Assembly (NCBI GenBank): GCA_019057355.1
Contig: DXJM01000002.1
Span: 1-36,077, forward strand
Origin: Promethearchaeota archaeon
GTDB taxonomy: Archaea > Asgardarchaeota > Lokiarchaeia > Sigyniarchaeales > SOKP01
Direction: 5' to 3'
Length of the DNA stretch: 36,077 nucleotides
This document shows positions 1 to 35,285 of this stretch, one piece after another (positions within the stretch are counted from its first letter, which is position 1; each line of letters begins with the position of its first letter). The translations under genes were made by a program, and so were the position numbers. The notes under the pieces were generated by a model that did no database searches, had not been told where the DNA came from, and saw only the letters and a program-made list of their open reading frames with translations.

Positions 1-3000
1 ATCAAGCTCAAAAGTAAGGTTGCTTCGATCACGGTAATATCCTTCGATTAGAGAGATTTCCAATCCATTAGCATTTGTATAATCTTGAGAAAGATCAAAC
101 ACGTGGTTATTTGAACTTATATCATACGGATAAAATACTTCGATGGCGTCTTGCTTGACCTCATATTCTCCTAATGTCTCATTCAAGTAAATTATTTTGT
201 ATTCCTTTGATGTTTCATTGTAATATTCGAAGCAGATCCTAATAGAATCAGGATCCACTTTAACCTGTTCTATTACATTCCATTCCTTCCAGGATTGATT
301 GTCACTCCAAGCAATATAGAGATAATTGAACTTATTGATAAATGGATGATAAGTATTATACAAATCATCAATAGCATTTTCATTATGCCCACTTGCGGGT
401 TGAGAGTACCAGTAATATTCTTCACTATATCCTGCATTCCAAGTGATATTATAGATTCCATAAATATCTTTGTTAATATTTAAATGCTTCCCAGGATAAT
501 AGGAGTTCCCGCTAGCTTCATATATTGTAAAAGATTCAGTCTCGTCAAAGTTATCATCATACGCATAAAGTGGTATTTTACCCTCAGTGTCTACTTGTAG
601 GTTATAATATTCATCATTTGGGTCATATAAATTGGTATAATTTCCATAATATATGGTCTTGAGATGATTTTCTTGATAGATTTTAAACATATCTGAATCA
701 TATAAGGTTGCATTGTTATCAAATTCAAAAATGTTAACAGAATCCACGATTAATTCATAGCGTGGATCGTTTGAAGTAATAAGGACGTCGGTGATATAAC
801 AATGTTCAATTCCTTGAGAATCTTGCATCTTAAAATCAGTATTAATTTGATCAAAACTGATATTGAAGATCCTTTGTACATGTGTATTATGAAAGCCCGA
901 TTCAAATGGTGTCAGATCTAATTGGTGTTCCCAAGCAACGAGCTTATTTCTTTGAGTAAATATATCTTCTAAAACGTTATATTCCACTTCGTCATTATTT
1001 ATACCCAAGAGGCTAATTTCGGCATAAGGGATAAATGCAGGTCCATTTTCATCGTAATTTATAACCATGGGCTTGCGTTGAAGGACTATTTCATTAATGG
1101 TGAGTCCGATATGTTTTTTTAGGATAGTATCATATTCAAGTGAGATAATATCTCCCGATCTCATCATGATGGTATTGCCATTCCGATCTTGATAATACTC
1201 GGGTAATGTTATATTATTTAATTGTATTTCCTTTTTATCTCCTTCTTCTTCAATTTTTTCTGTCCTTACTCCTATATCGGTTATGGTATACATCAATTCA
1301 TCTAAATGATTGAAAACATAAACTACTCCGTTCTCAAGCGAAAAAATATCTTTCTCCAAGTCAACTCCTAGAAATCCATTCTTTACCAAGGAATCATCCC
1401 ATTGAATTATTTGAGATGTAGGAATCCCTTGTTCGTAATAATATGCATTAAAGTCCGAATGTTCGTAAAATATTGGAGTTATTACCATTCTCGCATCATT
1501 TGCGATCGTAAATTGGTGATAATCACCTGTCGGAAGGGGCAAGTAAACGAGAGAACCTTCGATGAAATCAACGGGCTTTATTATAATCGATCCTATAACA
1601 TGAGTGCCGGAGCTATTTGTAAACTTGAATTCAACAAATAAGTGCGAAAGTATCTCATAATTTGAAATTCCCATTTTTAAAATGAGCGTGTCATAATTTT
1701 CCCATCCATTTTCAGGGTCATTAAGATCTTCTGAAAGGAGATACGTGAGGCTATTGGAATCTTCCAATTTGGCATAAATTTGTCTAGCTTTTCCTTCGCA
1801 ATAAGGACTGAATGGATCGATATGGTGAAGGAAATGTGGATTTTCCAAGTTTGGCATCAGATTATTTGTAGGATCACTCGCGACTTGCCAATTATTCAGA
1901 GTAAATCGACCATGTACCAAGTCTGCTTCAAATTCGTGGAAAGTTAGGTATTTATTGAACATTTCAGTAGTACTTGAAATAAAGATTCTTTTTCCTTCAT
2001 TCAATCCATATACGTCTAGATTACTAATACTCAAGATATTACTGTTAACATCAAAAATCAGGTGATCCTCGTCGATAAATGCAATTTCATCATCACTATT
2101 ATGATAATGTACAAACAATAAAAGCGGTTCATCATCATCATCAATTAATGGAATATTGTCTCTAAGATCGATTGAAATAAGGTTTTTAGCAATATCTTTA
2201 GCCTGTAATACATAGGATAATTCATGAGCACCTTTTTCTTGAAGTCTGTAATTGATGGACATCATGTATTGATAATTGGAGGATAAATTGTAATACATTG
2301 GCGAAATGATTGATCCAGCAGATAGTGGATTATAGGTGTTATAAAATTGAGACTCCCAAGGCATGACTTCAACGAAGAAGTGTTTTGAATCGAGTAAGCC
2401 TCCCTTGGTCTTGTGTTCATATTGTATAGTAAAATTTTCGAGAGGATTAATATAATCCATAATAGTAGGTGTAAATGTAATGGCATTACCATCCACACTT
2501 GAAAGGATGAAATCCTCTACTATATTTCCATATTTATCTCTTACGATAATATTTCCATTTTTTAATATATCATCTTCAGACATGTAATAAGTAAGAGTTT
2601 GATTTGCATAAAAGAAGACCAAGATAACTTCTGATCCATCAATGATTTCAATTTGGCGTTTTCGAACCAAGTTTTCTGATATACTAAACCTCGCAATACC
2701 ATATTGATCGACATGCCAATTTTGAATGAAATAAGTAGGTAACATTCTTTCACCCTTATTAGTTTGAACCAGTAAGCTGTACTCATATACCATAGAATAT
2801 TCCTGAATGTCAGGAACGCCAGAAAGGTTAATTTCATTAGTTTCAAAACCTTCAAATTTAAATGATGTATGATTGAAGACATTTGGACAAAATTGAAATT
2901 CTTCCACGGCAATAGCCTTATAATTATCCATGGGAGCATAATAGCTTAAATATTTATAAGATGCATAAAACTTAGAATCATCAGTCAAGTCGGGGTGATA

Positions 3001-12000: not shown

Positions 12001-15000
12001 TTGAATGTCTCCCGTGCAAGTGTGAATCTTCACGGCATCTATGAGAAAGATATTTTCTTGTGCTTCGACGATGAACTTGTAGTAGAATTCTTCGGTACCT
12101 ACATTTATCAAGGGAACATCATTGACCCAACCCGTTGCCATGCAAGGGATCTCATCGAACTTCATAGAAGCATAGTAATTATCATAATGTTTGAACGTAT
12201 TGATTATTAAAGTCTTTTCATCAATGCTGTAATCCGTCGGATCTATCAATGTCAAGTTTCCCGAATCTTCATCATAACCATATAATTCGATGATATCGAT
12301 GAAGGCAGGATTGTACTGGAAAAGTTCATCCTTTAGATTTATTTCTTGAACCCCATAACCACTTGTCGGATAAAGCTTTACCATATCAACCGAAGGTCTA
12401 CAGGTCTTATAATCGGCTTTAAATATTGTATTAAGCACTTCAAACGCAAATTGTCCGCTCAAGAATTTTCCCCTGTGAACGCCATTAAAAAGAACCGTGA
12501 TGTTAATATATAAGTGATAATTACTATCAAAACATTCTTTTAAGGCGTCAAGGTTGATGAATCCTGACATGAGATCTATTGGTACCTCATATTCCGTGAA
12601 CAATCCCTTGAGATTTTCTACTTTATATGTACCTATCTTATCTACTATTTCTTGATTCCTACTCATTTTATGGAAGTGAATATTAATATCATAAGTGCTT
12701 TCGGAAACGATCACGTTTGGCAAGCCACCCAAGTCATTAAGAAATCCCGCACCAAGATAGAGTGTCAATTTAATATCAAATAATTTCAACTCGTCACCAA
12801 TTCCCAATTGTAATGGGAATAGGAGCCCGTCTGAAAACTCATGGGTGATGCTTCTCCCATTCTCAGAGTTATTGATGTAATGCACCACTGCTCGAATGGA
12901 ATCATATTGATCAAGATCAATCTCAGTTGAAAAATTAATAAAATCTACAAAACCATTTTCTTTGAAATGAACTCGGTATGGTTCCTTAAGGAAGTATGAC
13001 AGGCTCAATTCATGATTGCTATAAAAATAGTCCACACTGCCATTTGCGTGTATTCCTGCAACTTGCTCGATTATCGTTATGTTTTCATAATTGTTATCGG
13101 GATAAAAGACGGTATCAACCACGGGATCACGAGTTAAATTGCTCCAAGGCAAGGCTGTGAAAGAGAATTGGTCATAGATGAAAATGTCCGTGTTTGATAT
13201 ATACAGGAGCATTTCTGTCTTGTTAAAATACCATCCACTTGGATCGAGGACTTGAATCGTTGCGGGATTTTCCGTGATTCCGTGAACATTAACCACATGC
13301 GCTATGTCATCACCCCAAGAAAGTGATGATAAATTGAGGTATGGAGAGGAATAAGACGGTGCTTCATAAAGAGGTGAACTCAACACGTTCTTCTTGATCA
13401 CATTGGTTTTTCTATATGCTCGTGTATAAGAATATTCTTTTGAAAGAGAAGCGGAGACGCTCATCCTGCCCTTGGTCTCAAAATTATCATCGTACACGAT
13501 GTCCCAATGAGGTTTGACTCCAGAATTATCAAATGTTCCGGGTATGACGTGAGTCAATCCCAACAATGTTATAGTTGCTTCATTATTTATAAATGTAAAC
13601 AATTTATTAAAATATTGATATTCATTCCTCGATAATTTGAAAACAATAGTGCAGTTATCCTCTTCTATTCCTTCTGAATTTTCAAAATAGACATTATAGG
13701 AGTGATCAAGTTGTATGCGATCATAAGTATCAAGATAATGGTTATCATGATCCCAAATTATTTTATTTCCAGAATCATGATACGCATAAGCGATTCCATT
13801 ATAGGGTATCCAAGTAGTTCCACCAGAAGGATTATAAATCTTTAAATTAGGTCTCCATGACCAATTAACGAAGTTTTGTGTGCTCGCTTGAAAATTAATC
13901 TTAAATACCACGTCAGAAATATCATTTAGGTTGTTAATTGAAATATCAGGAAATGTTAAATTAAATGGTAATGCACTGGTAAATTCTTGTTGATGCCACC
14001 AACTTGTCGAATATTGATACATCGTGGTAAATGACTTGCCATTTCCTTCATCTGGCTTTAATTTTGGAATAATTCGAAAATCATTTATAATTGAATTGGC
14101 TGTTAAGATATTTGATTCATTACCAAAATTAGGATGAGATATCTTTGAATTTAAACCAAATGTAATTGATTTCGGACTAAATGAATTAGCAAGAAAAATT
14201 TCATTAATTGAATAAATGTCATTAGAATCTTCCTTAATCTTTGAATTATGACCTTCTAAATCACTTATATCAATCTTTGAATAATCATTTTTAACCACAT
14301 AAAATTTTTCAGAAGGGTCATTTTGGATTAATGTTCCAATGTTAAATTGATCCTCACTAATACTATCTTTAAAAGTAACAGGCTCACTTGATACACCCAA
14401 ATTTAACCTTACTTGATCTGCATTTAAATGTATGGTTGAATATGCATCATGCCAACATTGTTGAGTGTGAAGCTTGCCTCCGGAATAAGTAAAAGCATCG
14501 GTATATGCATACGCATTATACAAGTTCCCAAAGAAATCTTCAGTTCCAGATTGAAATATCCACTGATTTAAACCTACATATGTGCTAAAATGTCTATTCG
14601 AAGAATACCCTTGCCCGTTAACAGAAAAATAAATAGTTAAATCTTCGGGTCTATAACCGGTCCATTGACCCCAAGGCCATCCAGCAGAACGCATGCTTCC
14701 AAAATAATACGATACATCCAAATTTTTGATATAAACATTATCAACCGGAAGTGTCCTGGTAAATTCGAATGATAATAAGTTTAAATCAATGCCATATCCA
14801 CTTATAATAGCACAATAAACTGTTGTGCCATCATGAGCATATAATTGGTTATAATTAGAGGGATAACCACAAACCGTATGATGAATTGTCCCGGGATTCC
14901 ACTCGTATAAATGATAAGCAGGATCGAAATAGTTATTGGTTATTGAAGAATCACTTGTAGAATAATTAAAATCCGTCCACAATCTCAAGTCTTCAAAAAC

Positions 15001-18000
15001 AGTATCCATATTAATATCCTGAAATCCATCATTAAATGCTAAAATAACCTCCCTATTTGCTAAAGCGCTTGAAAAAGTCAGGTTATTTAAACTATTTCCC
15101 TCATTGACATTTACCTCTTTTGTGTATGAAAATTGAGAGGACCAATCAGGCACTCCACTAGTATATTCCACTTTCTTAAAAAGTTGGTTTTTAATTTCAA
15201 ATATTTCTAAGCCTGTATCAATATTATAAGATATTGTTAGATAAAGCTTATTACCAGAGTTGTCAAATTCTCCATTTAGTTCTTTATATTTTCCATTAAC
15301 GAAAAATTGCCAGGAATTAGTGCTATCATAGCATATTTCAATGGAATTCTTACCTTCGAGAAGATATTCGATGTCAGTAAAAATATAAGGTACTGATTCA
15401 CCGATGGTAAATTGAAGACCCTCGTAGATATCCTCAGGTTTATCAAACGTGACTATTGCCCTGTATTTTAACTTCTCATCTGCATCGATTTCGGATTTTA
15501 AAATTGGATGAATATCATCATGATTTGCTTGGATTCCACCTTTTTTCAATAAAAGACCGCTATTATCTACTAGTTCTGAATTACCATAATTAACAAGATC
15601 CCAATTATCATTATGTAAATTGTTCATATCAGAAAAAAGTATACATTGGAATTGTCTTATTCTCAATTCATTATTATAGTTTGCAAAACATCCATTAAGA
15701 GTTATTTTGAAAGTAATGGTATCATTACATATGAAATCATCTAAAACAGTTCGGGTGTCTAGTCTTAGGTAATTATAATCATAGATGTGAGTTTCGGTAC
15801 CATATATGAATTGAAATACATTATTTTCTTTTCTTTGGAATAATCCCTTGTTGATGTTGTTTGAATCGGGAGTGACCCAATCAGCCTTATGTTTGTTATT
15901 GTCTGGCTTGTAATAATTGGTATCAACTTTCGTATACTCATAATAATTATAATGATCATTAAAAACGTCAGAATAAATGGATTCTCCAAAATTATATGTT
16001 TTTTTATAGCTTCCATAATTTAATGCTTCGAAATAATCCTTCCCTTCATATTGAAAATTCTTCTCTTGTCCACCTTCAGTCAATAAACTGATTGTTATTG
16101 GTTGCTTGCTGTCTGCATTTATGATTTGGGCAAAAGCAGTCGAGATATAGATATAATCGATGCTCTCGGAATCTTCATTGTGATTGACATCAAAGGTAAT
16201 TTCAACAGAAACATTGCTTCCATCGGTCTTGTATGCACTAAGCACGTAGTCCTGTTCTGTAAGGGTATGGATCAGGTCATTTCCCGAGTAGTCATAAAGA
16301 CCATTAATGCTGACACCATCTTTAGCAATGGAAGGCTTGTAAGGGACCGTGCCTTCAACGGGAACAAGCGACTTGGAATTGATGTCTTGGATGAATGCAT
16401 CATAATCAAATCGATCAGTTCTAAAATCAGCTGAGACTGATTTTGATGGTTCTTCAACCCAGGTATCGTAATAACTATTATTGTAAAGGTACTGGTAATC
16501 TTCTGGATTGTAAAAATCTTGGCCCGACTCAAACTGGGAGAGAAGAGAGCTTGTTGACACGCTATTTCCGTTAAAATTAATAGGTCCATAATCCATTCTC
16601 AGGTTTCCAAATTCAGATAGCGTTCCGAAAGCGTCATAATTCGTCCAGCCGCTTGTAGTTATTGAGCCATCTGATAAAACATAAGGATATCCTGATATTA
16701 CATCAAAGTATTGGTAATTCCAATCTCCTGCTGAAGTCCCATATTTAAACGTGTAAGAATCATCTAACTTGTTATATAATTGGAATGCAAGCTCGTCAGC
16801 ATTCATGTCTACATTAGAAGCTGCTATGTTTCCAATATGTTGCACTTCCTCTTTTTTATAGTTTCCTGAAAGGAGACCATTCACAGTGGCGACCGTGGCC
16901 TCATAATAATATCTTACTTCATAATAGGTATTGGCATCCTCTTCATTTCGGGACTTCCAATTCCATTTATCATAAAAACATTCAAGGTTCCTCCTGTCTG
17001 AATTGATTCGATAGGAATCTTCATTAACTTGGCGTAAGGTATCCATAAAGTACATTCCAGTCTTGAGATTCTTGCTAAATTCAGTGATACTTATTATCTT
17101 GAAGATTGGATATTTTTTTAAAGGAATCAATGCAATCTGAGTTTGATTATCTGCAAGTGCATGTAAGTCCCATTTTCTAAAGTAATCTACTGCGTGATAA
17201 ATCGGTTTCAAATCTGTTGATATTACATCTGTAGCTATATATGTCTTGTGAATTCCCTTGTTAGAACCTAACAACGCATAATTGATATTATTTTCCTTTA
17301 AATGGGTGATTTGTCTTATCCTGAATTCATAAATTTCACTTGAAAAATCATCGTTCTGTGAATCAAGTGAAAATGATGTTTTATACCAGGTATCCGAGAA
17401 CTTGTCACGCAAGAAATAAATCACTCTATCGTCTTCATGATAGGTTGTCATTGAAATTCCCACTACCAAGGATTCTCCTAATTTCGTTTTAATTGACGTT
17501 ATTTCCACGACTCCACCTTTCCTTGCGTTTTCAAACATAAGAATCGAAGATTCACGAAGAAACATGTCAATGGAAAAAATGGAACTGTAAAGTTCTCCTT
17601 GGAATGTGTAAACCGATCCTACATATACCCTATCACCCATTATGTTCATCGCAGTTATAGAATTACCTACAGGAACTATATTTTGGGTAGCATTTTTATC
17701 TTGCGTTAATACTAAATTCTCGTCAAAATCGAGTCGAGCTATGAAACTCGCTCCTGTTGATTGTTCTGTTATTGTAACGTAAATTGTCAAGAACTCATTA
17801 TTCATATCATCAATGATATAATCGTTGAAGCGTGGATCTTGGAGCTTGAGAGAATATAAGATGTGTTCAAAACTGGTGATGTTTTGATTAAACTCAAACG
17901 TTTTAGATTGATGGTCAAACAAGTAAAAAGAAATGTTGTTGGAATCGGATTTTTTATTAAATGCGATCAAATCAGTATATCCATCCTTGTTCAAATCCAC

Positions 18001-21000
18001 GCTATTGATGACGTGAGATACCAATGATATTCCCATTTCGGATGTAAAATTAATGTAATATTGCTTGTTAGAAGCATTATATGAGTAAACGTATATCTTG
18101 CCCTTCAAATCAATAAGGAATGGTTGAAGAACTTCTGAACTGGAGAATATTCCATAACCCCCATGATAATACTGGGTATCAGGAGCATTATTTATTGTAT
18201 AATTCACGGGAAGATATCCGGATTCCATCGACAAGAGATCGTGATAAGTTTCATTGGAATCGATATTCCAATCAATCGTGAAATGACCATCACTTGTTTG
18301 CGCTGTACCAATAGGAACCCAGGCTTTCTTGGTAAAAGTATAATAGGACATCTCGACATTGATATTACTCTTGTCATCTTGAGAAGTCCATTCTTTTAAA
18401 TAACCATAAAATTGATAAGGTTCTTCGGTATAATTAACATCCTTAGAATAATAAATAATCTCCGCAAATGAGGTCGCATTTGATAAGGAGTACTGTCCTT
18501 CTTTAAAGACATATATATTTTGATAAACATTTTGGATATTACCAGCAAGATCTATAATTTCTGCCCGAATCGTAGAATATCCCTCGTTAAAATCTTTCGG
18601 GTTCAATTTTAAAAAGTAATAAGTGAGTGGATATGAATCAGGATCCATTGACATCATACCTATATAATGATCTGAGGCATTATATATCTTGATTTCCTTG
18701 ATATCGTTGAGGAACATGTACCCATTTTTGATGTAATAAGTTTCGGATGTCGAATTATACACGTAACCTGGAGTTAAATAAATCGTGGAATATTCCTCAT
18801 TGCTCGTGCCAAACATAATGTTTCCGATTCCATCATTCCATCCCAGAGCCCAATAATTACACTTGGTATCACCGTTTCCATCCCCTATTATCTTGCCAAA
18901 AACTCCCTCGCTTTTGAAGGGATCATATCTTGCTTTATAAATTTGGGTTGATATAATATTATCATGAACGTCCCTTGCCTCAATATGAAACTCAAACATA
19001 TCTCGCAAGTAATCTTGAGGGAAATCATAATGACGGGCAAATTGACCGTCATCATTGTCAAAACCCAATAAATTATCATGCCATTCGATGCTTTGATTGA
19101 TGAAATCCGAGATGTTAAAATCAGTTGATTGCCACGATTCACCATTGAACGTGAAAGTCTTTTTCCAGCCTAAATCACAGTGCACACCCTTTAGAATGAG
19201 ATCACCACATAAATATTCGATATATCGCTCGTCAAACGTGATTTGATTTAGCATTGAATCATAGAAGAAAGGTATGGAAACCTTTTGATCGGCTGAACAC
19301 ACCTCTTCAATGGCTATGATGTTAAGATCGATGAAGGGAATCGCTTGACTCCAACCACCCCAATAAATAATATTCTCGTAGATATATTCTCCATTGTCAT
19401 ACCATCCATCGTAAAATGAATAGGTCAATTGATATGGGTTGATATAAGTAGGCTTGCTTGGATTTTCAGAATATCGGCGCATCACGACTCGAGACCAATT
19501 TTTTTCTCCATTAATTAGTTCATATATGGCAGGATCTCCAAGAATCTTTGTTACATATAATTCTACTGAAGTAATCTCAGAGTTATCACTCAAAACCACC
19601 GTTATGTTTGCCTCGTCGCTGAAATAAATGAAGTCATCGGAAATGTCTCCATTAAATGAAAGGTTAATAATTGATGGAGCAATGTTGTCTACATATATCG
19701 TAACTGTAAAGTTGAAATATATACCACATATGTCTTGTCCGCTGAAGTGCAAAGTATAACTTCCATCCCCGAGTAAAGTAGAGTCTAATATCAAATCATT
19801 GAGACCAACAGGCAGATAGTAATAATGAGCTAACTCTATGGGATCGCCATCCACGTGGATGATCAACTCATTTAATGACTTGCTAAATAATGGTCCTTGA
19901 GAGTTTTTAAAGTGCATCAATCCAGAACCATTAAAGACGAGTCCACCATCAAGCAAGTCGGGATTGAATTCTAAGGGAGTTGAATCTAAAATTACAAAAA
20001 AGTCTTCTAAAATACTATTAAATCCTAGTTCATCGATTGCTGTTACCTTGATGTTACAGGTGCCATCCATCAATCCTGCATCATTAAGGTATAAAGTATA
20101 GGTGTTTCCACTAAACGTGATGTCATCGAGGTCAAAAAATTTCTTTTGAATGGAGGCTAATTTTAAGTTTTGTCCAATTTCATATGTCTTTTCCCACGAA
20201 TATCCAATGGCATCGAGATATGCTGTTCCAGTGGTTGTTCCTGGTGTGCCAAATATTATAGTAGTAAAATTTCCTGAAATACTTCCTTGATAACCATAAC
20301 CAGAACCTCCATCTTTGCTAATATTATCAACCCATAAATGCCAATCATTTCCACAATCAAACTCTATTTTCACATGATACCATGTACCTGCTGTATAAGT
20401 CATAAGATCATGATAACTACCATCATTATATCCATAATATCCTGTGCTCCTAAAATAAAAAGCAAGGTAATGACCACCTGCATCTGATAGCTTCAACCAG
20501 AGATCATCATTAGTATCTTCCATCATGATATAAAATTCTAATGATCCAAAATCATTATTTATTGTATCTTCTATTTTCACACCATAAACACTAGAATAAT
20601 CATATAAACAAACAGCCTTTTTATGACTATCATCAAATCCTACTACATTAACAGTCCCACCCATTTCATCTACAGTCCATCCTATTGGATCTTCCAGCGT
20701 TTCATCATCCTCAAAATTATACGTTCCGAAATAATAATTCCAATACCAGTTATCTCCAAGGACATAGTTTTCATCCCAGGAGTAGCCAAAAGCATCAAAA
20801 TAGAAAGAATAATCGGAATCAGTAGTAGATGTAAAAAACATCAATGAATCTATATAACTTGCAGGGGTATTAAAACACCCTTCACTTATTTTTAATATTC
20901 CATTAATATATATATCACAAGTATCATCGGAACAATCAAAGTCAATGTGGACGTGGTACCATGTATTAGCCTCAATGGTCTGCATTAAAATATAACTTGT

Positions 21001-24000
21001 TCCATCATGGTAGAGAAATTGATTATTCCAAATTTGGAATAATATTTTTTGATCCCCATTTTCTCTTATTCTCATGTAATTTGCTACTTTATTGATATTA
21101 TCAGTTCTAATCCAAAACTCTAAACTCCCAGATGTTTGACTTTCAAAATAATTATAGATTTCTGTAGAGTAGGATCCAGAGGTGTCATGCAATTCCAGGA
21201 CTTTTTTATGGGAATCAATTTCTGAGATAACCTTGACAGTTCCACCATTTTCTCCCACGATCCATCCATCAGGATAGCTATTGAGTTCATCATTAGTAAA
21301 GCTATAGGATCCCGGATAATGTCCGGAACAATCTATAGATTCAAGTTCTTGGGTCAATTCAATCTTGACTTGATCCACGCCATCGTAATCAGATACATCA
21401 AATGAAAGAGAGCCCGATGCAGGATCCACGTGGGTTCCATTTTCAAAAAGCGGAATAATAAAGGGACCTGCATGATCAATGAATAAATCCGTGAAAAATT
21501 TCTTGCTTTCTTGATTGTAGATGTCGAAAGCAGTCACCTCCAACACATATTCATCAGATACCAAATCTTCGACATTCAAGTTAATGCGGAAAGGATATTC
21601 TTCAATGAGCCCGTTTGAATAGGAATATTCCACGGTAACATTGTAGGCAGAAATTTCTTCCAGGAGTTCGGGTTTATTGTCATATTGGATGTAAATGTCT
21701 GTCGTGTTACCCTTTTTGTCAAAATAATAGAATAAATCATCTCCTTCAATGATTCTATCAATGCGTGAGTCCGATATATCATAATCAATCAAGAGCCGAG
21801 TAATTTCGACAACATCTTGAGGATATTCCGTTAATTCTAATATTTTTTTTTCACTCGTACTGGTAGATGTTGGAACGAGCGTGCTCGCAACATTATTTGA
21901 ATCGATGTTTGGTATTAAATCATATTGATAATGATTGTTAAACCGTTTCCCGTGGAATTCTAGGGTGGGATGCTTGTTGAAATAGGGATATCCATCACTA
22001 TTATTATAATTACTGTTTACATCCAGGTAAATCGCACTGGAACTATTAAAGACAATCTCATAATGAGCATATTGATCTATCTTTAAATCGCCAATGGATA
22101 TCTCCGTGTCTTTTGTAATTACCATCGTGATTGGTATTGTTTTCGTTATGAGATGTGAGTGTTGATCCCACAGTCTCAGGGTCAACATTTGAGAATCAAG
22201 CGCTTTTAATTCCAGTTCAAAATCGTTGAGATCAAACTGGATTGATGCCCAGAAGTAAATTCCTCCTCCTGAATAGGTTCCTTTACGTAATTGATATAAG
22301 GTTTCTCCACAGGTTATGCTTGCCAGCTGAATGTCCTGGGCAATGGGGATCACTTCAAAAATAACGGGATCGAGGATGTTGTAGACTTGTTCGCTGGAAT
22401 ATCCCTTGAGTTGCACGTCAGAATATAAGTTCATGTCATGCTTGAATGATAATTCTACTGAGGGTCCAGAGTTCCCAAGGTTATCATATCCCACTAGTCT
22501 CAATACAATATACGAATCGGGAATTTTACCTATGTTCCACGTGAATCGCTCACTGGCTTGGTATGTTTTTGAATGCCACCTGCCACCCTTGCCGTAATCA
22601 TACCATAATCGATAATAAGCAAAATCTGAAGCACTTGATTCCACATCACCAGATATTATGCAATCAAATTCATTTGGTTCAGTCCAAAATCCTGCCTTTT
22701 GTTCTATTTGATAAAGGTTATCATTTATATTTGGGATAATGCTAATGCTCGGTCCATTGCAGTCAAGACAAACTCTTTCTTTAGTCACGTTAAATTTGCG
22801 AGTTCCAAAATACAAGTAATTTAATTCAATCTCAACAAGAATATCAAATGTCACTGTATCTGTCCAAGGCAAGTTAATGAAAGGCGCTGAAAATTCAGGG
22901 GATGGATCATCATTGATTAAAAACCAATCATCATCATTTTCCTTCTTGACGAAAAATCTCGTTCGTTCAACAAAAGATTCTGTCACTGAATCAAGTTTAA
23001 GCAATACTTCATCGAGATAAATTACATTATCTTTGACAGTTATAACATCGTCAAAATTATTTATTGATAATACATGATCGAAAATATCAAATCCATCAGT
23101 CAAACCACCATTTGAACCTTCCGCAATCAAATACCAAGTACCATTTGGAATCTTGGCAGTGCTTAAAATGTGATAGAAAGATTGATTGGGGCTGGAAAGT
23201 TCAGCAACTAGGATCCAATCATCCTTGTTTTCTTCAGTTGGCAAGACGTCGTGCATGTAATATCTTACCTTCGTTAACGGAAGCTGACCAAGATTAGTGA
23301 TCGACATCTTAATATAATCCGATACAAATTTGTCATAATTTATATCAAGCCAATCACCCGTTCCCTCGTTTAGTTCACGCACTTTGCATGTTACTTCGGT
23401 GGGATCATTGGATATGACAATTTTAGAGATAGTTTTATTTCCCGTTAGACCCTTGTTGTCGTGCATTACCACGTACAATCCGTAATTAAATCCATCTTGG
23501 AATTGCGTGGTATCCAACAAGAAGGAGAAATAAGCTTGACCATCTATATATTCAAATTGGGTTTTATTCGCAATGAGATTATAACTTTGGTCTATCAAGT
23601 ATAGGGCGGCCCATTCATAATCATCTCCAGGAGCTCTCACTTGCACGTCATATTCTCCACATATGATGTCATCGTCATTGATATTAACAAATTCCTGAAA
23701 TATTTCTTTTTTAATAAATTCAAACTTGAATGAGTCGATCAAGACACCCCACTGATTAGTGAATGTCTTTTTATCCGTGATGTAATATGAATCAAAGAAT
23801 TCAGAAATGAGCTTGACTTGAATGGAGTTAGTAGCAGTCAGGATATGATCTCCATAGAAATACAATTTAATCGGTTCATTCAAGTGATAATATATCTCTC
23901 CATTTGATCCTATTACGTTAATAAAATCGTTGATATTAAGATCCTTCATTTTTATAACCGCGTTGGAATATTTGGAGAAGATTTTAATTCCAAACTGATC

Positions 24001-27000: not shown

Positions 27001-30000
27001 TTGAACCATCCAATCATCATCATTCTCGCTGTTTGCAAAAGTGAAAAATAGACCATCAGACCAGAAAGACTCAGGATTGCGTTCTATTGAGTTGGAACTG
27101 TCTTTCACGACAAAAGGTCCGTAAAGATCACCAAGAATCTGGTATCCCTCGATGTAATTTCGTCCTTCATAATAATCTTCAGACCAAGAGAAATCAAGGG
27201 CATCAACATAACCAGTGAATCCCGTTGGGGAATTGTCGGTCTCAACCTGGAAATAAGTTGATTGGTTTTGATTTTGATAAAATGTGAATGTACCGAGTTT
27301 AATACCATTCACATATAAATGGTAATAATATTGACTCAATCCCTTATAATTACCATTCGTGCATTCAAAATCTATACGAAAATGATACCAGGTGTTTGGA
27401 GATCCTGTCATTCCTGAATCATGCCAACCTGATGAGTCGAGATATCCAATTTTATTTATTCCCAAGTAAACTTGAGCTAATCTATCCTCATCATTTTTAA
27501 TACCGGCATACAAATATTTTGCGCTTGTAGCGGTATTTGTTCTCATCCACCATTCGACTGTACCATTAGTTTGAGAAGTATATGTTTTTTTTAATTTAAT
27601 TGCTGCAGAACTGCTCGTGTCATCTAATTGAACAACTTTTCTATGTCCATCAATATTTTTAATTACATTAACCGAACCTCCGTCTTCAATGACAATAAAT
27701 TCTTCGGGATTTTCACCATCCTTGTCATTTTTAAAAGAATATATCGCGGGATAATCTTGGCTCGATTCAACACTAAACACATTTTCTTGAATTTCATTAT
27801 TTCTACCTTCATAATACCCTTCAGACCATGAATAATCAATTCCATCAATATATATTGAATAAGTATTTGGAGAATCGGTTCTTGAATGGATAGTTAACTT
27901 TCCAAAACTCGTGGGGCTACCCCAAAACTCATAACCATTTCCTTCATCAATGGAATTTCCATCTATCCATAAATGCCAGTCATCAGAAAGATCAAATTCT
28001 AATTTAAAATGATACCAACGATTGGCAGAAAACGGCATAATAGTATGCCATGATCCATCAAAATATTTAATATTGCCCGTCTCATCCATATATAAATAAA
28101 GTGAATCACTCGTAGAACCATCCTCAAGAGTTATATAACATCTATCGCTAGTAGTAGACATTCTCCACCAAAATTCAATCGTTGCTTTTGATATTTCATT
28201 CCATTCTTGAGACATTAATATCATATTAGATGTACTAGTATCTTTCATTTCGATCACATTACTATGCCCATCTAATTTCTTAATAATATCAATAGTCCCA
28301 CCTGTCTCATCGATGGTAAACATTGATGGATTTACTCCTGGATCCTCATAATAATCAGGATAACCAATATAATGACCTGAATCAATTTTTGGATCAAAAT
28401 ATAGATATTGAATCTTCCATTGTTCTTGCTCACCAATCTTTTTGGACCTGACTTCATAAGCAATGAAGATTGTATTATTAAATGCGTTATTTATTATTGG
28501 ATTAAGCATCTTGTAATATTCATAGTCATAATATTCTGTAAGGTCAGAAATGACCGATCTTTCCTGCAATTTATGTTGTTGGGAGTCGTATATGCAATGT
28601 TTGAACAATATTTCAGAAAAGTTTTCATTAAATGAGCTTGAATAGATTACATTCAATCGACCAAAAAAATCATATTTGAGATCTGCCTCGTTAGAGTTTT
28701 TTACATCAAAAAGGTCTTTCGAAACAGGGATGTCTTCATAAAAATTAAACATATCATCAGATACGTCGATATACACGTATCTTGAATCCTCATCAATCCT
28801 GCTCTCAAAAGAGACAGCAAGCTCTTTTTTAACATAAGATATACTAGTCAATAGTTCTTCCGGTAATTTAAACTCATCTTCAGTATATTTTACATAAAAA
28901 CAACAGTCTTCAATTTGCTCATCGTGAAACATTATGTTGATGTCATTATTACCATATGATCCAATGATTGAATAATTATTTCGATTCAAGCGAATAGCCA
29001 TATCTTCCACTTGGTCATAATCGAGTGGAGTGGGACTTATAAAGATGTCCTTAATTTTTTTTAAAGATGACGTACTCGAGTCGAGCAGTTCAGCAAGAGA
29101 ATAAATTTGAATATTTTCATTAAAACTACTTGATATCATCTTGTATTTTCTAGGGTCGTAAACGTCATGAAATTCATAATCATCAGGTAAAATAATCCTA
29201 TTATTTTCAAATTGAAGTGATTCAGGACCAAACTTAGTCAAGAAATCATTTTTGGAGTCAAATAATATTGTCTCAGTGCCAAATACATCTTTAACAGCGA
29301 TAGAGTTCAATTTATAAATATCATTGCTCGAATCAATCATTACATTCCAATTCCCATCGTATTTATATACCCTATCACTTATGCTTCCAAAAATATACCA
29401 TTCTCCATTTTTATATTGAATATCATAAGGCATCATATCTTCTGAACCAATGTAAAATGACTCGCCAGTGTAATTCCAAGTCCCATCATATTTAAGAACA
29501 TTTTTGGTCATCATATCAATGATATACCAATATGAACCATTCTTGTAAATGGAACCAGGTATAATTTCGCTAAGATTGTAGGCTTCACCGGAATACTCCC
29601 ATTGAGAATTGTATTTATAGACAGAAGATGTATTTAATCCAACCATCCACCAATATACTCCATCAAAAAATATATCCCAAGGCATAGGATCTTCTTGGGT
29701 TAAATCGTGTGAATCATCTTGATAGTTCCAAAGCTCATCATATTTACACGCGGTAAAGTTTGGATATCCGAGAACCCAATAATATTGCCCATCATGAGCT
29801 AAAGAATAGGGGTGTTGTAATTGATCACCCATATAGCGATTTTCCGATTCATAAGCAAATTTCTCATCATATTTATAAACATTGCCACTATCAAATCCCA
29901 AAATCCACCAGTCATCACCATCAGGAATTATGCCATATGGATCTGAGGTTTGATCATTAAGTAAGTAGGATTTTGCTCCAAACCAATCGAAATATAATTC

Positions 30001-33000
30001 CGTGCTGTTTTCAGCAATAATGGATGTATTTAGATACAGTGCTGTACTTGCTTCTGGTGATTCTATTTTTGCATCATAATTTACGGAATTTTCTTGATTA
30101 TCATCAATTCTTACAGGTTCAATAAAGACACCTCCGTTATAGCTGCTATCCAATCGAGCATAACACACGTGCTTTTTAATATCATTTGGGTTTTCATTAT
30201 CTCTTGAACCATTATCCATATTTATCCACGTTGTATTTTCAAAAATGAGGTGAACGATGCAATCTTGAGTTAGAACATTTCCATCTTCGTCATACTTGAT
30301 ATCTCGCGGTGTAATTGCAATATCTGGAGCAAGATAAGAGTGATAGTCAAGATCTGAAGGATCATAACTGACTACTTCCTTGATTTCTTCAAGCATAAAA
30401 TCAAATAAACTAATTCGACCATAATATATTGACCATTCTGTTTCTCCTTGAGAGTGTTGTTCAGTGTTCCTTTGCTGCCAAGTAAGGTGCAAGTCAGTTT
30501 CCGATAAAGCCATTGATGGTGCTAACTGGTAGGTATTGTCATCACCTGATTCATAAATTCTCTTGGGTGTTGAAAATTGACCATCAGGACGATATGCCCA
30601 CGTAAGATAAATTTTCCATAAATCCTCCTCGTTAAATTTTCCTGAAAAGAGAATAATGATCAAATTATTATTTGAAACTATCTTGGGCACGACATATCTT
30701 TGCCGAATTTCGTTAGTTATTGAATCTGAATCACCGAGACTCACGAATTCGTCCAAAATTTCACTTCCATAAGCATCAGATACATTGATGGGCATTCTGG
30801 AACTTTGAAGATCAAACACACCCATACCATTACCTTCCACCTCCCTCCACGTTGGGGGCATGTTAACACCATTAGAGGGGGAAAATATGGGATTTTCATA
30901 AGCATCTTCTGAAAATAATCCGCTGAAGTATTTCCACGAATTATCCTGTCGGAAATCATTGTAGAAATAGTTATTAGTAACAATTCCAGGATACTTGTTA
31001 TAAGATAAAATTTCATTTCCTAACGTAAGTGGATTATCAAAAGTCCATAAAAGAGGCTCTGCCGTGCCTAAGAGAGGGGAACTAAATTCATTATACCCAT
31101 CCTCAAATTCAAAACCTCGATAGTAAGTCGGTGGATAATTCACTTCTAAATGGGCATAATCAAACTTAATTTCGATTAGATCATTACTATCGACAATGTT
31201 ATCATAAATCAAATTAATGATAATTTTAATGCTAAATCTTTGTCCTCCTTCGGTGAAGAAATCCCTAAGATCTACATTCACTACTTCCCAACTCGAGGTT
31301 GTTGAAGTGATTGGTTCCTGAAAATGGACTTCTTCATGGACTAAATATCCGTTTCTAATCAATTGTGTCTTTACCAAACCGGTGATCTGATCTGAACCAC
31401 CATTAATGATTTTCACCATATCATAACTTAATTTAAACTTCGCGGAATCGGCAATCGTTCCAATATAGGTCAAAGTAGGACTTTCAATAAATACATTTTC
31501 TGAGTTTGAAATGGTCCTATAGATATAATCAGGATTTCCAGAATATTCAGTGAAAATTGGAGATTCTGTCCATGAAATTTCGTTATTATTAAATTCATGA
31601 TGGTAAATTAAGGCACTGGTGGTTTGGAATTCATTCTTGTTAAAAAAATTAATATCAGTTCCGTTCGTAGTTCTTTGAATCTCATTTATTTCTTGATAAC
31701 TCGTGTGTATATACTTATTTTTAGTTATCTCACAATCTTCGATATGGGAAGTGGTCTTGTAAAATGCATTTTGTTCCCCATTAAAAAAGATTTTACCTTG
31801 GGTATATTCTTTGAACCTGCTATAAGTAAGATGCTTGTAAGAGATTATACCATCAGGTCCAATTTGATAATCTGTCAATTTTTTAAATACTGGTTTTAAA
31901 CCTTCACGTTCTGTTATATACAATGAGACTTCCCCTTGAACTATTTCCTGTAAAGAATTTTCCATTCGAGTATTAAAAAAGTTGTTCCACCCCAACCCAT
32001 CATTATTTTCTTCGCAATAAATGCTCCCTCGAGGATAAATTAAATCTGATTGGTTAAGATTGTTTGAATCTAAATTATCATAATAAGGATTAAAATAGAT
32101 TTTATCTTTTTGAATATCAATATTAAAAACAAGTGGATCAGAGACCTTGCCCAACGTGAGCAGTAAATCCTGAACCCAGTACACTTGCATTTCATAACTC
32201 CCGGGTATAATATCCCTCTGAACGTCAGTGAAATCTATTTCGAGAACCACTAATTGTTTCAAGAAAGGAGTGCGAAGGGTTTTAGAGGTCAGAATATGAT
32301 TCATCCGGAAAAGATCTGAATGTTCTCCTTCTAAGTATATTTCTTTGGCAATCAGTTTCACGACCAAGGTGCGAGCCTCAAAAATCCCGATGGATACTTG
32401 AGGAATTCTCACAAGTAAAAGGCCATTAAAAGTCAAATCTGTAAGATTTTCAGGTGATTTGTAAAAGATTAGAGAATTAACATCATATGAATAATCTTGA
32501 TTATTTCTATGATATTGGGGCGCAACCGTAAATTCAACATCGGGTTGCTGGAGTGCAGTAAGCGTTCCTGGGAAGCATCCAATAAGGAAAGGAAAGATCA
32601 TTAAAAAGAGTACCACCATTATGGCTAAAAGTTTTTTTCTATATTCTATTTTTGTATATTGTTCGGGAGTCTTCCAGGGATGGGTGATTAAGTAGATTTG
32701 GTTCTTAAATGAGTCCATAGATGAAATACCTTTTTTTCGAATCAAGTCTGCCCGTCGATTCGATTTAAGGCGCGATCGGGGAAAGAAAATGCCGATAATG
32801 CCTGCCATAATGAAAAAAGAGGTTACTGATAACAAGGTATCATAATAGGCAAACAAAAAGAAGAGCAATAAAAAGGAACCGATAAACAAGGTTATAATAC
32901 AGATCACGTATTTTATGGTATCATAAACATCCTTTGCTGAGGATATCATCGTTCTCCTTAAACTTTTCCTCTTTTTAAATCTCTTTTTCGATAATATCCA

Positions 33001-34836: not shown

Positions 34837-34841
34837 TCTCC
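34837..34841 (-). promoter_or_regulatory. Shine-Dalgarno-like GGAGA, 9 nt upstream of the giant-gene ATG
   Basis: The reverse strand reads ...AAATGGAGAAAGATTAAAATG. No other canonical start codon lies between the upstream in-frame TAA (34888-34890) and this ATG. Confidence 0.5.
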
Positions 34842-35276: not shown

Positions 35277-35285
35277 AAAAAAAAA
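35277..35285 (-). terminator. T9 tract immediately after the winged-helix gene stop codon (possible oligo-T termination signal)
   Basis: The reverse strand reads TAA-TTTTTTTTT-ATC. Only a weak 4-bp hairpin (AGAC-TTCAG-GTCT) follows it. Confidence 0.25.

What the first reader, a model, noticed from the sequence alone, without database searches (positions are those of the whole stretch)
1..34827. One uninterrupted >=34.8-kb ORF (>=11,609 codons) missing from the supplied ORF track
The window looks empty in the track (longest entry 125 aa), yet one reverse-strand phase is open from ATG 34825-34827 to coordinate 1 and beyond.

Three lines of evidence support this:
- About 9 kb of scattered hand translation showed no stop and always the same phase.
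- All 12 reverse-strand track ORFs inside 1-34827 sit in a single other phase (end coordinate equal to 2 mod 3).
- Most + strand track ORFs sit in the codon-aligned antisense phase, which is the classic shadow-ORF pattern of a single real coding frame.

A protein of at least 11,609 aa (well over 1 MDa), with its C-terminus still missing, would be among the largest prokaryotic proteins described. Its function is unknown. Its composition (acidic, N/Y/D/I-rich, beta-rich modules) suggests a cell-surface adhesion or interaction machine.
Basis: seen in the sequence. Interest (0 to 1): 0.9.

Follow-up and report, generated by a model that had tools for sequence, protein, structure and literature searches.

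The report
Giant surface-protein gene of Asgard archaea
The window is almost entirely one real, uninterrupted gene for a protein of at least 11,609 amino acids (about 13,400 when complete), a membrane-anchored, sugar-binding surface giant from a small, uncharacterised family found in Asgard archaea; it is remarkable in size but is one more example of the giant genes already reported in these organisms.

Summary
The minus strand is open from 34887 to base 1 (11,629 codons, 0 stops against about 880 expected). The first ATG is at 34827, giving 11,609 aa (1.35 MDa, pI 4.5). The ORF tool omits it only because it runs off the contig end; the window appears to be the whole contig.

It is a real gene. 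It is collinear at 35-55% identity over aa ~543-11,609 with relatives at about 15 loci. These come from Promethearchaeota, Helarchaeota and Kariarchaeaceae MAGs and from Loki's Castle sediment. dN/dS within the family is 0.07-0.17.

Relatives that reach the stop place it 1,741-1,924 aa beyond the window end, so the full length is about 13,400 aa.

Architecture:
- A basic N-terminus with two clusters of membrane helices.
- A non-repetitive, acidic, beta-rich ectodomain of about 10,850 aa, with Ig-like sandwiches and lineage-specific cassettes (two LamG/ConA-lectin pairs, a five-blade repeat).
- In relatives only, C-terminal Gly-rich membrane helices and variable tails.

There are almost no Pfam hits and no PDB sequence hits.

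The most likely role is cell-surface adhesion or cell-cell contact; this is inferred, not shown. Proteins over 10,000 aa are already reported in Asgard archaea, and far larger ones in Omnitrophota, so the "among the largest" claim is dated. Interest is moderate.

The parts
1..34827 (-). Giant ORF, 11,609 codons from ATG 34827 and open through base 1. The C-terminus is missing, about 1,750-1,920 aa judging from relatives.
   Evidence: 0 stops against about 881 expected; collinear homology at 35-55% identity over aa 543-11,609 with L002-L005 and L008-L017.
34838..34841 (-). GGAG, a Shine-Dalgarno-like motif 10 nt upstream of the ATG.
   Evidence: sequence read directly (…CAAATGGAGAAAGATTAAAATG…). 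Function is inferred.
34324..34647 (-). Membrane-helix cluster 1 (aa 61-168, about 3-4 helices). It is preceded by a basic cytoplasmic N-tail (aa 1-60).
   Evidence: Kyte-Doolittle 19-aa window maxima of 2.4-2.5, sequence.
33169..34323 (-). Basic, K/R-rich region between the two helix clusters (aa 169-553), presumed cytoplasmic. It is lineage-specific: aa 1-547 have no homologue anywhere.
   Evidence: K+R 16.6 %; pI of aa 1-759 is 9.9; all hits cover only aa ~548-1200.
32551..33168 (-). Membrane-helix cluster 2 (aa 554-759, about 4-5 helices). Family-wide homology starts here.
   Evidence: hydropathy maxima 2.9-3.05; AF2 long helices.
31738..32550 (-). First ectodomain segment (aa 760-1030): tandem Ig-like beta-sandwich domains.
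   Evidence: AF2 with 14 sequences, pLDDT about 80-90 in this stretch. (Foldseek against PDB): pilus chaperones, alpha-2-macroglobulin MG domains, transglutaminase barrels and FN3, with E 2e-4 to 1e-2 but low TM-scores. This supports only a generic fold class.
29308..29934 (-). Five copies of a repeat of about 43 aa (…DG.(W/Y)Wxx.G…VYKYD..W.Y…; aa ~1632-1840). It looks like a propeller blade set and is an insertion absent from L002, L003 and L016.
   Evidence: motif list; relatives skip window aa ~1612-1853; no Pfam hit. The fold is inferred.
27157..28425 (-). LamG / ConA-like lectin cassette pair 1 (aa 2135-2557, two modules of about 200 aa). It is an insertion relative to L002 and L003.
   Evidence: Laminin_G_3 E = 1.2e-8, 35.7 bits (cutoff 27.6); internal repeats at 31-33 % identity..
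20125..21375 (-). LamG / sialidase-CBM-like cassette pair 2 (aa 4485-4901). It is an insertion relative to L002 and L003.
   Evidence: Sialidase-like_CBM E = 8.3e-7, 29.5 bits (cutoff 27); 31 % identical to cassette pair 1; similar to a cassette placed elsewhere in L005.
17860..18003 (-). FG-GAP / XAC2610-like motif (aa 5609-5656, …DLNKDGYTDLIAFNK…), conserved in relatives.
   Evidence: FG-GAP E = 0.01, below cutoff; XAC2610_fam E = 2e-5, 25 bits against cutoff 35. Weak.
13714..14340 (-). Poorly conserved linker (aa ~6830-7038). Two relatives are split into two genes here; the window reads straight through.
   Evidence: L003 has an in-frame TAA and L002 a frameshift, at different positions. 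L004, L012 and L013 are unsplit, like the window.
35286..35651 (-). Upstream same-strand gene of 121 aa, a TrmB/MarR-like winged-helix regulator.
   Evidence: TrmB E = 1.3e-4, MarR E = 3.6e-4, both below the Pfam cutoffs.
35951..36077 (-). 3' end (42 codons) of an IS630-type DDE_3 transposase gene, cut by the contig end.
   Evidence: L001 is near-identical over its roughly 990-nt overlap with the window (one mismatch apart from its terminal bases) and carries the full DDE_3 ORF.

Best explanation
The window is one contig of an Asgard (Promethearchaeati; most likely Promethearchaeota/Lokiarchaeia-related) genome. It carries a single intact giant gene.

The product is about 13,400 aa when complete; 11,609 aa lie in the window. 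Its layout is as follows:
- A basic N-terminal part with two clusters of membrane helices anchors it in the cell membrane.
- From aa ~760 onward, a non-repetitive, acidic, beta-rich chain of about 11,000 aa is exposed on the cell surface. It starts with Ig-like sandwiches.
- Carbohydrate-binding cassettes (two LamG/ConA-like pairs) and a five-blade repeat are inserted in this lineage.
- Relatives show that the chain ends in several Gly/Ala-rich hydrophobic helices and a variable tail.

The most likely function is a surface fibre or coat that binds glycans on partner cells or matrix, that is, adhesion or cell-cell contact.

Shown: the ORF, its conservation and selection, the hydrophobic clusters, and the lectin-type domains.
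Inferred: topology, surface exposure, single-polypeptide expression, and the adhesive role.
For: The gene is real:
- 0 stops against about 881 expected.
- Codon usage is uniform across the ORF.
- There are no tandem DNA repeats.
- Homology is collinear at 35-55 % identity over aa 543-11,609 with independent contigs.
- dN/dS is 0.07-0.17 between family members over 1,200-1,400 codons.

Lineage:
- Relatives are titled Promethearchaeota (L004; P0016), Helarchaeota, Kariarchaeaceae and LCGC14 Loki's Castle sediment. LAZR01 loci also appear.
- NCBI taxonomy places these groups in the kingdom Promethearchaeati.

A single ORF is the normal state:
- L004, L012 and L013 read through the region where L002 (frameshift) and L003 (TAA) are split, and those two splits lie at different points.

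Full length:
- Stops in L008, L010, L013 and L017 lie 1,741-1,924 aa after the position equivalent to the window end.

Anchor and surface exposure:
- Hydropathy clusters at aa 61-168 and 554-759.
- The N-terminal 759 aa have pI 9.9; the rest has pI 4.4.
- AF2 predicts long helices followed by beta-sandwiches, with Ig-like Foldseek matches.
- LamG_3 and Sialidase-like CBM score above the Pfam cutoffs.

Literature:
- LamG_3 is the commonest domain of archaeal proteins over 5,000 aa, whose function is unknown (PMC11573180).
Against: - There is no expression or proteomic evidence. Internal starts or processing into several polypeptides cannot be excluded.
- Function rests on about 850 aa of lectin-like cassettes and a generic Ig-like fold.
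- About 90 % of the chain has no Pfam, NCBIfam or PDB sequence match, even with family profiles. Enzymatic or other roles could therefore be hidden there.
- The lectin cassettes are lineage-specific insertions, not part of the conserved core, so they may not define the family's function.
- Six relatives carry stops or frameshifts, so the gene may be dispensable or often decaying.
Lineage is inferred from relatives that are only 40-45 % identical.
- One relative is labelled Thermoplasmata (L005).
Confidence: 0.6

Rival explanations
1. Contact-dependent weapon of the polymorphic-toxin type. The giant conserved body presents or delivers a variable C-terminal effector, such as a nuclease, to neighbouring cells. 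The Gly-rich hydrophobic helices near the C-terminus serve membrane insertion or translocation.
For: Seen in relatives only:
- After a conserved 1,100-1,300 aa, the last 450-800 aa are not homologous between loci.
- L010 carries a double LAGLIDADG domain (LAGLIDADG_3 E = 1.5e-10, above cutoff). L013 has a weak hit, L017 an HTH, and L008 a GIY-YIG-like motif plus gene fragments.
- Gly/Ala-rich hydrophobic helices precede these tails.
Against: - The C-terminus is not in the window.
- LAGLIDADG and GIY-YIG domains are typical of selfish homing endonucleases. They could simply be fused or inserted at the 3' end.
- The L008 tail contains half of a His_Phos_1 domain and a ThiS fragment. This looks like read-through into decayed neighbouring genes rather than a toxin.
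- No conserved small immunity-like gene follows the stop. The downstream genes differ: an LRR protein, a CODH-like protein, an activase, a 5'-nucleotidase.
- No known pre-toxin or toxin Pfam domain was found.
Confidence: 0.12
2. Cargo of an Asgard mobile element of the aloposon type (Wu et al. 2022), whose hallmark is tandem giant genes. The ORF would be a fused Otus/Ephialtes-like pair serving the element rather than the host.
For: - PMC8813620 describes aloposons with tandem 3,000-6,000-aa genes. [quoted passage not shown]
- L002 and L003 show two adjacent giant ORFs.
- The neighbourhoods look mobile or variable: an IS630 transposase in the window, an AEP-primase-like gene and many ORFans upstream in L002, and a type IIG restriction-modification gene upstream in L006.
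- Flanking genes are not conserved between loci.
Against: - The 'tandem' state in L002 and L003 comes from a frameshift and a single TAA at different positions. Four other loci are unsplit.
- No tRNA gene occurs in the window or in any relative, including the 1.2-4.1 kb downstream of the stop in four loci.
- No MinD/ParA-like gene lies upstream in the window, L002 or L006.
- L017 has a core-metabolism CODH-like gene 2.2 kb downstream.
- There are no relatives in IMG/VR.
- Homology to Otus/Ephialtes could not be tested.
Confidence: 0.1
3. Structural surface coat or matrix protein. It would act as a protective, hydrated, acidic layer like halomucin of Haloquadratum, in archaea that lack a regular S-layer, rather than as a specific adhesin.
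For: - Very acidic (pI 4.4), huge, and probably extracellular.
- Apparently anchored at both ends in relatives. This would suit a surface-bound loop or mesh.
- From general knowledge, unverified here: cultured Lokiarchaeia lack a canonical S-layer.
Against: - Not mucin-like: non-repetitive, no S/T/P-rich tracts, and N-glycosylation sequons are not enriched (124 against 113 +/- 9).
- The family is rare: only 21 cluster representatives among 1.84 billion for the N-terminal part.
- It is frequently disrupted, which is unexpected for an essential coat.
Confidence: 0.13
4. Artefact or dead gene: a chimeric or mis-assembled contig, or a pseudogene that happens to be open.
For: - The contig ends in an IS element and inside the gene, so the assembly is fragmented.
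- Several relatives are disrupted.
- aa 1-547 have no homologue with which to validate that part.
Against: - 11,629 stop-free codons in a 34 % GC sequence cannot persist without selection (P about 1e-399).
- Order and orientation match independent assemblies from other samples over aa 543-11,609.
- Codon usage is uniform.
- There are no repeats that could cause a collapse.
Confidence: 0.03

Closest known systems
Unnamed giant genes of Asgard archaea (West-Roberts et al. 2023, bioRxiv 10.1101/2023.11.21.568195; Wu et al. 2022, PMC8813620, Extended Data Fig. 7; 23 Asgard proteins over 5,000 aa in PMC11573180)
   Same: - Same lineage, by relatives.
- Size class over 10,000 aa.
- LamG_3 is the only recognisable domain.
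- Function is unknown.
- Entries are annotated only as hypothetical or partial proteins.
   Different: Those reports give counts and domain sketches only. This particular family has not been described in any paper I found: its collinear core of about 13,400 aa, its N- and C-terminal helix clusters, its cassette insertions and its variable tails. Whether those surveys already include members of it is unknown.
Omnitrophota giant proteins (Archaeovorin and Dockerin types)
   Same: - Very long and membrane-associated.
- Mostly extracellular and largely unannotatable by HMMs.
- Beta-rich, with a proposed role in contact with other cells.
   Different: - Different domain of life.
- No SecA_DEAD domain, glycosyl transferase or hydrolase, peptidase, methyltransferase, dockerin or TSP3 domains.
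- Membrane helices only at the ends.
- 3 to 10 times shorter.
Aloposon giant gene pair Otus/Ephialtes of Ca. Heimdallarchaeum (PMC8813620)
   Same: - Asgard origin.
- Very large genes.
- Two relatives show adjacent giant ORFs.
- Neighbourhoods look mobile or variable.
   Different: - Here the normal state is one ORF.
- No tRNA lies downstream and no MinD/ParA lies upstream.
- Sequence relationship was not tested.
Repetitive bacterial giant adhesins (RTX/Bap/Ebh-type, e.g. MpIBP, SiiE, LapA) and archaeal halomucin; comparison from general knowledge
   Same: - Megadalton size, acidic, surface-exposed.
- Ig-like and lectin-like modules.
- Presumed adhesion or surface-matrix role.
   Different: - Those are built from tens to hundreds of near-identical tandem repeats and are secreted by T1SS or Sec with other anchors.
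- This protein is essentially non-repetitive: only four LamG modules, five short blades and one pair of about 80 aa repeat.
- It is anchored by its own polytopic N-terminus.

Membership tests
Archaeal huge proteins with the LamG_3 architecture (PMC11573180) | Protein of at least 5,000 aa from an archaeon carrying Laminin_G_3 (ConA-like) domain(s). | tested here: met
   11,609 aa. Laminin_G_3 scores 35.7 bits against a cutoff of 27.6, in two stretches. Archaeal origin is inferred from relatives.
Omnitrophota giant proteins (Archaeovorin/Dockerin types) | Divergent SecA DEAD helicase / preprotein-binding domain. | tested here: not met
   No SecA hit at E <= 0.5 in 1,000-aa chunks over aa 1-10,000, nor at E <= 0.1 over aa 10,001-11,609.
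Omnitrophota giant proteins (Archaeovorin/Dockerin types) | Characteristic domain sets: glycosyl transferases/hydrolases, peptidases, methylases and NUDIX, or dockerin plus thrombospondin type 3 repeats. | tested here: not met
   Pfam finds only LamG_3, Sialidase-like CBM and sub-threshold FG-GAP.
Omnitrophota giant proteins (Archaeovorin/Dockerin types) | Numerous transmembrane regions along the protein. | tested here: inconclusive
   Hydrophobic clusters occur only at aa 61-168 and 554-759. One weak segment lies at aa 9027-9045. Relatives add a C-terminal cluster.
Aloposon (Otus/Ephialtes) elements, PMC8813620 | Tandem genes of 3,000-6,000 aa each. | tested here: not met
   The window has one ORF of at least 11,609 aa. 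The splits in L002 and L003 are a frameshift and a TAA at different sites, and L004, L012 and L013 are unsplit.
Aloposon (Otus/Ephialtes) elements, PMC8813620 | Integration at a tRNA gene downstream of the giant genes. | tested here: inconclusive
   The downstream end is not in the window. No tRNA occurs in 12 related loci, including the 1.2-4.1 kb past the stop in L008, L010, L013 and L017.
Aloposon (Otus/Ephialtes) elements, PMC8813620 | Four conserved upstream genes including a MinD/ParA-like ATPase. | tested here: not met
   Upstream in the window lie a TrmB-like gene and an IS630 remnant, with only 1.25 kb visible. L002 and L006 have 10 kb of upstream sequence with no ParA/MinD Pfam hit.
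Aloposon (Otus/Ephialtes) elements, PMC8813620 | Sequence homology to Otus or Ephialtes. | not testable with these tools
Repetitive giant adhesins (RTX/Bap/Ebh type) | Long arrays of tandem, near-identical Ig-like or other repeats. | tested here: not met
   Self-BLASTP finds only 9 off-diagonal matches, all in the LamG cassettes or one pair of about 80 aa. TRF finds two trivial 2-copy DNA repeats.
Polymorphic toxin systems | Conserved N-terminal body with a non-homologous C-terminal toxin domain that varies between strains. | tested here: inconclusive
   The C-terminus is absent from the window. Relatives have variable tails of 450-800 aa with LAGLIDADG, HTH or GIY-YIG-like content. No recognised toxin domain was found.
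Polymorphic toxin systems | Cognate immunity gene immediately downstream. | tested here: not met
   The downstream genes of four relatives are unrelated to each other and are ordinary: LRR, CODH-like, activase, 5'-nucleotidase.

The most novel reading that the evidence does not exclude
This is an Asgard-specific, non-repetitive megaprotein of about 13,400 aa that is held in the membrane at both ends. Its conserved ectodomain mediates physical contact with syntrophic partner cells or competitors. Its exchangeable lectin or propeller cassettes and polymorphic C-terminal tails tune partner recognition or deliver effectors. It would then be a previously undescribed cell-cell interaction machine in the archaeal lineage closest to eukaryotes.
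Probability: 0.12. Interest if true: 0.8.

Novelty: new member of a known kind. Interest (0 to 1): 0.45.

Why it matters
Asgard archaea are the closest known relatives of eukaryotes. Models of eukaryote origin depend on how these cells physically hold on to partner bacteria. A conserved surface protein of 1.3-1.5 MDa with glycan-binding modules is a concrete candidate for such contacts. This work defines a family of it (about 15 loci, alignments A8-A13) that could be searched for in cultured strains, proteomes and tomograms.

It also shows a practical point. ORF callers that drop end-truncated ORFs, and word-indexed protein searches (one search missed relatives that one search found), can make a contig that is 96 % coding look empty and orphan.

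The existence of genes for proteins over 10,000 aa in Asgard archaea is not itself new.

Tried and rejected
- Pfam on 4,000-aa and 1,000-aa chunks, and NCBIfam: only LamG_3 and Sialidase-CBM pass their cutoffs. FG-GAP, XAC2610, ETRAMP, DUFs and the rest are sub-threshold noise.
- PDB sequence search with the protein and with six family profiles covering aa 760-11,609: zero hits even at E <= 1.
- The search for homologous proteins on aa 1-5000: nothing found. This was a false negative of the word prefilter, since P0001 and P0002 match aa 546-6830.
- Single-sequence scans of genome contigs and metagenome contigs: nothing found. The alignment-based scans worked.
- AF2 of aa 8090-8800 with 6 sequences: pLDDT 46, unusable, so it was not fold-searched.
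- Foldseek of the aa 540-1200 model: only generic Ig-like sandwiches with TM-score below 0.3. No specific family was assigned.
- Stop-codon recoding as the cause of the splits in relatives: rejected. The stops are TAA, TGA and TAA, plus three frameshifts.
- Ca-binding DxDxDG motifs and enrichment of N-glycosylation sequons: not enriched.
- Viral origin: no relatives in IMG/VR.
- tRNA and Rfam features: none.
- Borg or huge-virus idea for L002 (low GC, ORFans on a single strand): not pursued further once the relatives proved to be Asgard chromosomal contigs.
- Literature look-ups for the sample accessions: nothing found.
Full report
**1. The observation**

Translating all six frames shows one minus-strand frame open for 11,629 codons, from 34887 to base 1. 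The next-longest open stretch anywhere is 133 codons.
- The first ATG is at 34827, with GGAG 10 nt upstream. The frame ends flush at base 1 with no stop, so the product is 11,609 aa.
- Shuffles of the same 34,827 nt give 881 +/- 33 stops in this frame. The chance of none is about 1e-399.
The longest entry is 125 aa. All 12 minus-strand ORFs end at a coordinate equal to 2 mod 3. Twelve of the 18 plus-strand ORFs are in the codon-aligned antisense phase.
- The giant ORF is absent from the track only because ORFs running off an end are not listed.
- A cluster look-up shows the neighbouring 121-aa protein on an NCBI contig of exactly 36,077 bp. The window therefore appears to be the whole contig and cannot be extended in that assembly.
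- Codon usage in the three thirds of the ORF correlates at r = 0.95-0.97.
- There are no meaningful tandem DNA repeats and no Rfam or tRNA features.

**2. It is a real, conserved gene**

A first word-indexed search with aa 1-5000 found nothing. Searching aa 5001-10000 then found two proteins of about 6,000 aa. Alignment-based scans of GTDB genomes and JGI metagenomes added twelve loci.
- BLASTP shows strictly collinear similarity at 35-55 % identity from aa ~543 to aa 11,609.
- A full HMMER pass of aa 1-1200 over 1.84 billion cluster representatives found only 21 proteins, all matching aa ~548-1200. The family is rare, and aa 1-547 are unique to this lineage.
- Between the closer family pairs, dN/dS is 0.07 (1,226 codons), 0.09 and 0.17 (1,412 codons). 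This indicates strong purifying selection on the protein.
- Collinearity with independent assemblies also argues against a chimeric join anywhere in aa 543-11,609.

**3. Whose gene**

The named relatives are all from Asgard groups or Asgard-rich sediment:
- 'MAG: Promethearchaeota archaeon' (L004; P0016).
- Ca. Helarchaeota, Ca. Kariarchaeaceae and LCGC14 marine sediment, i.e. Loki's Castle.
- Five LAZR01 contigs from the metagenome scan. Their assignment to the Loki's Castle metagenome is my own recollection of that accession prefix, not a tool result.

NCBI taxonomy places Promethearchaeota and Kariarchaeaceae in the kingdom Promethearchaeati, that is, Asgard. One relative sits in a bin labelled Thermoplasmata (L005), possibly mis-binned. 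The window's low GC (34 %), its TrmB-like neighbour gene and the 40-45 % identity to these relatives fit a distinct Asgard lineage. This is an inference; no tool named the window's organism.

**4. One gene or two**

In L002 and L003 the locus is annotated as two adjacent giant genes (6,168 + 6,934 aa; 6,007 + at least 2,296 aa).
- The break in L003 is a single in-frame TAA.
- The break in L002 is a frameshift with no nearby ATG for the second part.
- The two breaks lie about 180 aa apart in window coordinates.
- The window, L004, L012 and L013 read straight through this poorly conserved linker at aa ~6830-7038.
- Other relatives carry a TGA, a TAA or frameshifts elsewhere.

The single ORF is therefore the normal state. 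The splits are mutations or sequencing errors, not recoding.

**5. Full length and the missing end**

In L008, L010, L013 and L017 the ORF stops 1,757, 1,924, 1,741 and 1,922 aa after the position equivalent to window base 1. The complete protein is predicted to be about 13,350-13,530 aa.

In those tails:
- The first 1,100-1,300 aa are conserved.
- Gly/Ala-rich hydrophobic helices appear at about +600, +1,000 and +1,130-1,290 aa.
- The last 450-800 aa are unrelated between loci. L010 has a double LAGLIDADG domain, L013 a weak LAGLIDADG hit, and L017 an HTH. L008 has a ThiS fragment, a GIY-YIG-like motif and half of a histidine-phosphatase domain.

None of this lies in the window.

**6. Anatomy inside the window**

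| Region (aa) | Feature |
|---|---|
| 1-60 | basic tail |
| 61-168 | hydrophobic helix cluster 1 |
| 169-553 | K/R-rich region |
| 554-759 | hydrophobic helix cluster 2 |
| 760 onward | acidic chain |

- The first 759 aa have pI 9.9. The remaining 10,850 aa have pI 4.4, with D+E about 15-16 % and K+R about 7 %.
- AF2 on aa 540-1200 with 14 sequences gave long helices followed by beta-sandwiches, with pLDDT 80-90 for aa ~760-1030. Foldseek matched only generic tandem Ig-like domains with low TM-scores.
- AF2 on aa 8090-8800 was beta-rich but unreliable, with pLDDT 46.

The chain is almost free of internal repeats. The exceptions are lineage-specific insertions that L002, L003 and L016 lack:
- Five copies of a blade-like motif of about 43 aa at aa ~1632-1840.
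- Two pairs of LamG/ConA-like modules at aa 2135-2557 and 4485-4901. LamG_3 scores 35.7 bits and Sialidase-like CBM 29.5 bits, both above their Pfam cutoffs.

Relatives carry other carbohydrate-binding cassettes at other places. P0001 and P0002 have CBM96, and L005 has a LamG insert.

Everything else has no match in Pfam or NCBIfam. PDB sequence searches with the protein covered aa 1-10,000 and part of the remainder. Searches with six family profiles covering aa 760-11,609 gave zero hits at E <= 1.

**7. How it most likely works**

- Shown: a selected ORF of about 13,400 aa; N-terminal hydrophobic clusters; a charge switch at aa ~760; Ig-like and lectin-type domains.
- Inferred: the N-terminus is a polytopic membrane anchor. 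The acidic chain is exported and forms a very long surface structure. Its exchangeable glycan-binding cassettes attach the cell to partner cells or matrix. In relatives, the C-terminal helices tie the far end to a membrane.

I put about 0.6 on this surface-adhesion/contact reading. Certainty is near-complete for 'real Asgard giant gene' and only about even for the function.

Rivals:
- A halomucin-like coat (0.13).
- A polymorphic-toxin-like contact weapon, suggested by the variable nuclease-like tails but lacking immunity genes and toxin domains (0.12).
- Aloposon-like mobile-element cargo (0.10).
- Artefact or pseudogene (0.03).

**8. Context**

Immediately upstream lie a 121-aa TrmB/MarR-like gene and the 3' end of an IS630-type transposase at the contig edge.
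- The same transposase and TrmB-like gene arrangement, about 990 nt of overlap running from the right edge of the window, occurs near-identically on a 2.2-kb contig of an ENA 'fossil metagenome'.
- Flanks of relatives are not conserved. L002 has an AEP-primase-like gene and ORFans upstream, and L006 a type IIG restriction-modification gene upstream. Downstream lie CODH-like, LRR, activase and 5'-nucleotidase genes.
- No tRNA or ParA/MinD gene is present, and there are no viral relatives.

**9. Comparison with what is known**

- Proteins over 10,000 aa have been counted in Asgard archaea (10.1101/2023.11.21.568195).
- Proteins over 3,000 aa in Asgard genomes, and the aloposon twins, were sketched by Wu et al. 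(PMC8813620).
- LamG_3 is the commonest domain of archaeal proteins over 5,000 aa, and their function is 'not understood' (PMC11573180).
- Omnitrophota proteins reach 85,804 and 147,155 aa.

The size record claim therefore fails, and the kind is known. This particular family, its architecture and its distribution appear undescribed. Its members are deposited only as partial hypothetical proteins.

**10. Verdict**

This is a new member, in effect a newly delineated family, of a known kind. Interest is moderate (0.45).

Noticed in passing
window 35085-36077; L001 1240-2233: The right end of the window (TrmB-like gene plus the 3' end of an IS630/DDE_3 transposase) is near-identical to a 2,233-bp contig of an ENA 'fossil metagenome' (ERZ925045, DRR027590, PRJDB3255). 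There is one mismatch outside the contig tip. The same strain or IS context therefore occurs in that sample. The contig break sits in the IS element.
   Followed up: partly
L010 8399-10720; L013 18017-19789; L017 13434-16049; L008 10899-12719: The C-terminal 450-800 aa of the giant ORFs in relatives are mutually unrelated. They carry homing-endonuclease-type or DNA-binding domains: a double LAGLIDADG domain, a GIY-YIG-like motif, and an HTH. In L008 they carry fragments of ThiS and half of a His_Phos_1 domain. Gly-rich hydrophobic helices precede these tails. The tails could be polymorphic effectors, selfish endonuclease fusions, or read-through into decayed genes.
   Followed up: partly
L016 925-7495 (Ga0114925_10004294): A short variant. 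The N-terminal part (equivalent to window aa 543-2765) is joined, through a frameshift, directly to the part equivalent to aa 10,149 onward. About 7,400 aa of the middle are skipped. This is either a real deletion variant or an assembly chimera.
   Followed up: no
L009 1535; L014 5219 (LAZR01 contigs): Copies that begin at positions equivalent to window aa ~8,970 and ~10,080. They have unrelated opposite-strand genes upstream and no membrane helices. L014 nevertheless has dN/dS 0.09 against a longer relative (L013) whose ORF continues upstream past this point. They are either 5'-truncated remnants or stand-alone C-terminal modules.
   Followed up: partly
L002 4496-6832 and 1-10000: Upstream of the giant gene, on a 467-kb JGI contig, lies a run of same-strand ORFans. 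It includes a 778-aa protein with archaeo-eukaryotic primase motifs (DIDV, SGSKGLHLVY; weak DNA_primase_S hit, E = 0.0097) and a NYN-domain protein. This looks like an integrated mobile element next to the giant gene.
   Followed up: partly
L006 1-1670: A type IIG restriction-modification gene (Eco57I/TaqI_C, 1,212 aa) lies 8 kb upstream of the giant gene in a Promethearchaeota MAG. This is another hint that the family sits in variable genome regions.
   Followed up: no
window 29308-29934: Five tandem copies of a motif of about 43 aa (DG.(W/Y)Wxx.G…VYKYD..W.Y) with no Pfam match, present only in the window's protein. It may be a novel five-bladed propeller cassette.
   Followed up: partly
L005 (CBDVCJ010000087.1): A 13.4-kb contig that is one open frame of this Asgard family is binned as 'uncultured Thermoplasmata archaeon'. 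This is probably a binning error; otherwise it is evidence of transfer outside Asgard.
   Followed up: no
tool behaviour: The word-indexed protein search missed clear relatives. P0001 and P0002 were not found for aa 1-5000, and the 6,934-aa second gene of L002 was never returned. 'No hit' from that tool should not be read as orphan status.
   Followed up: yes
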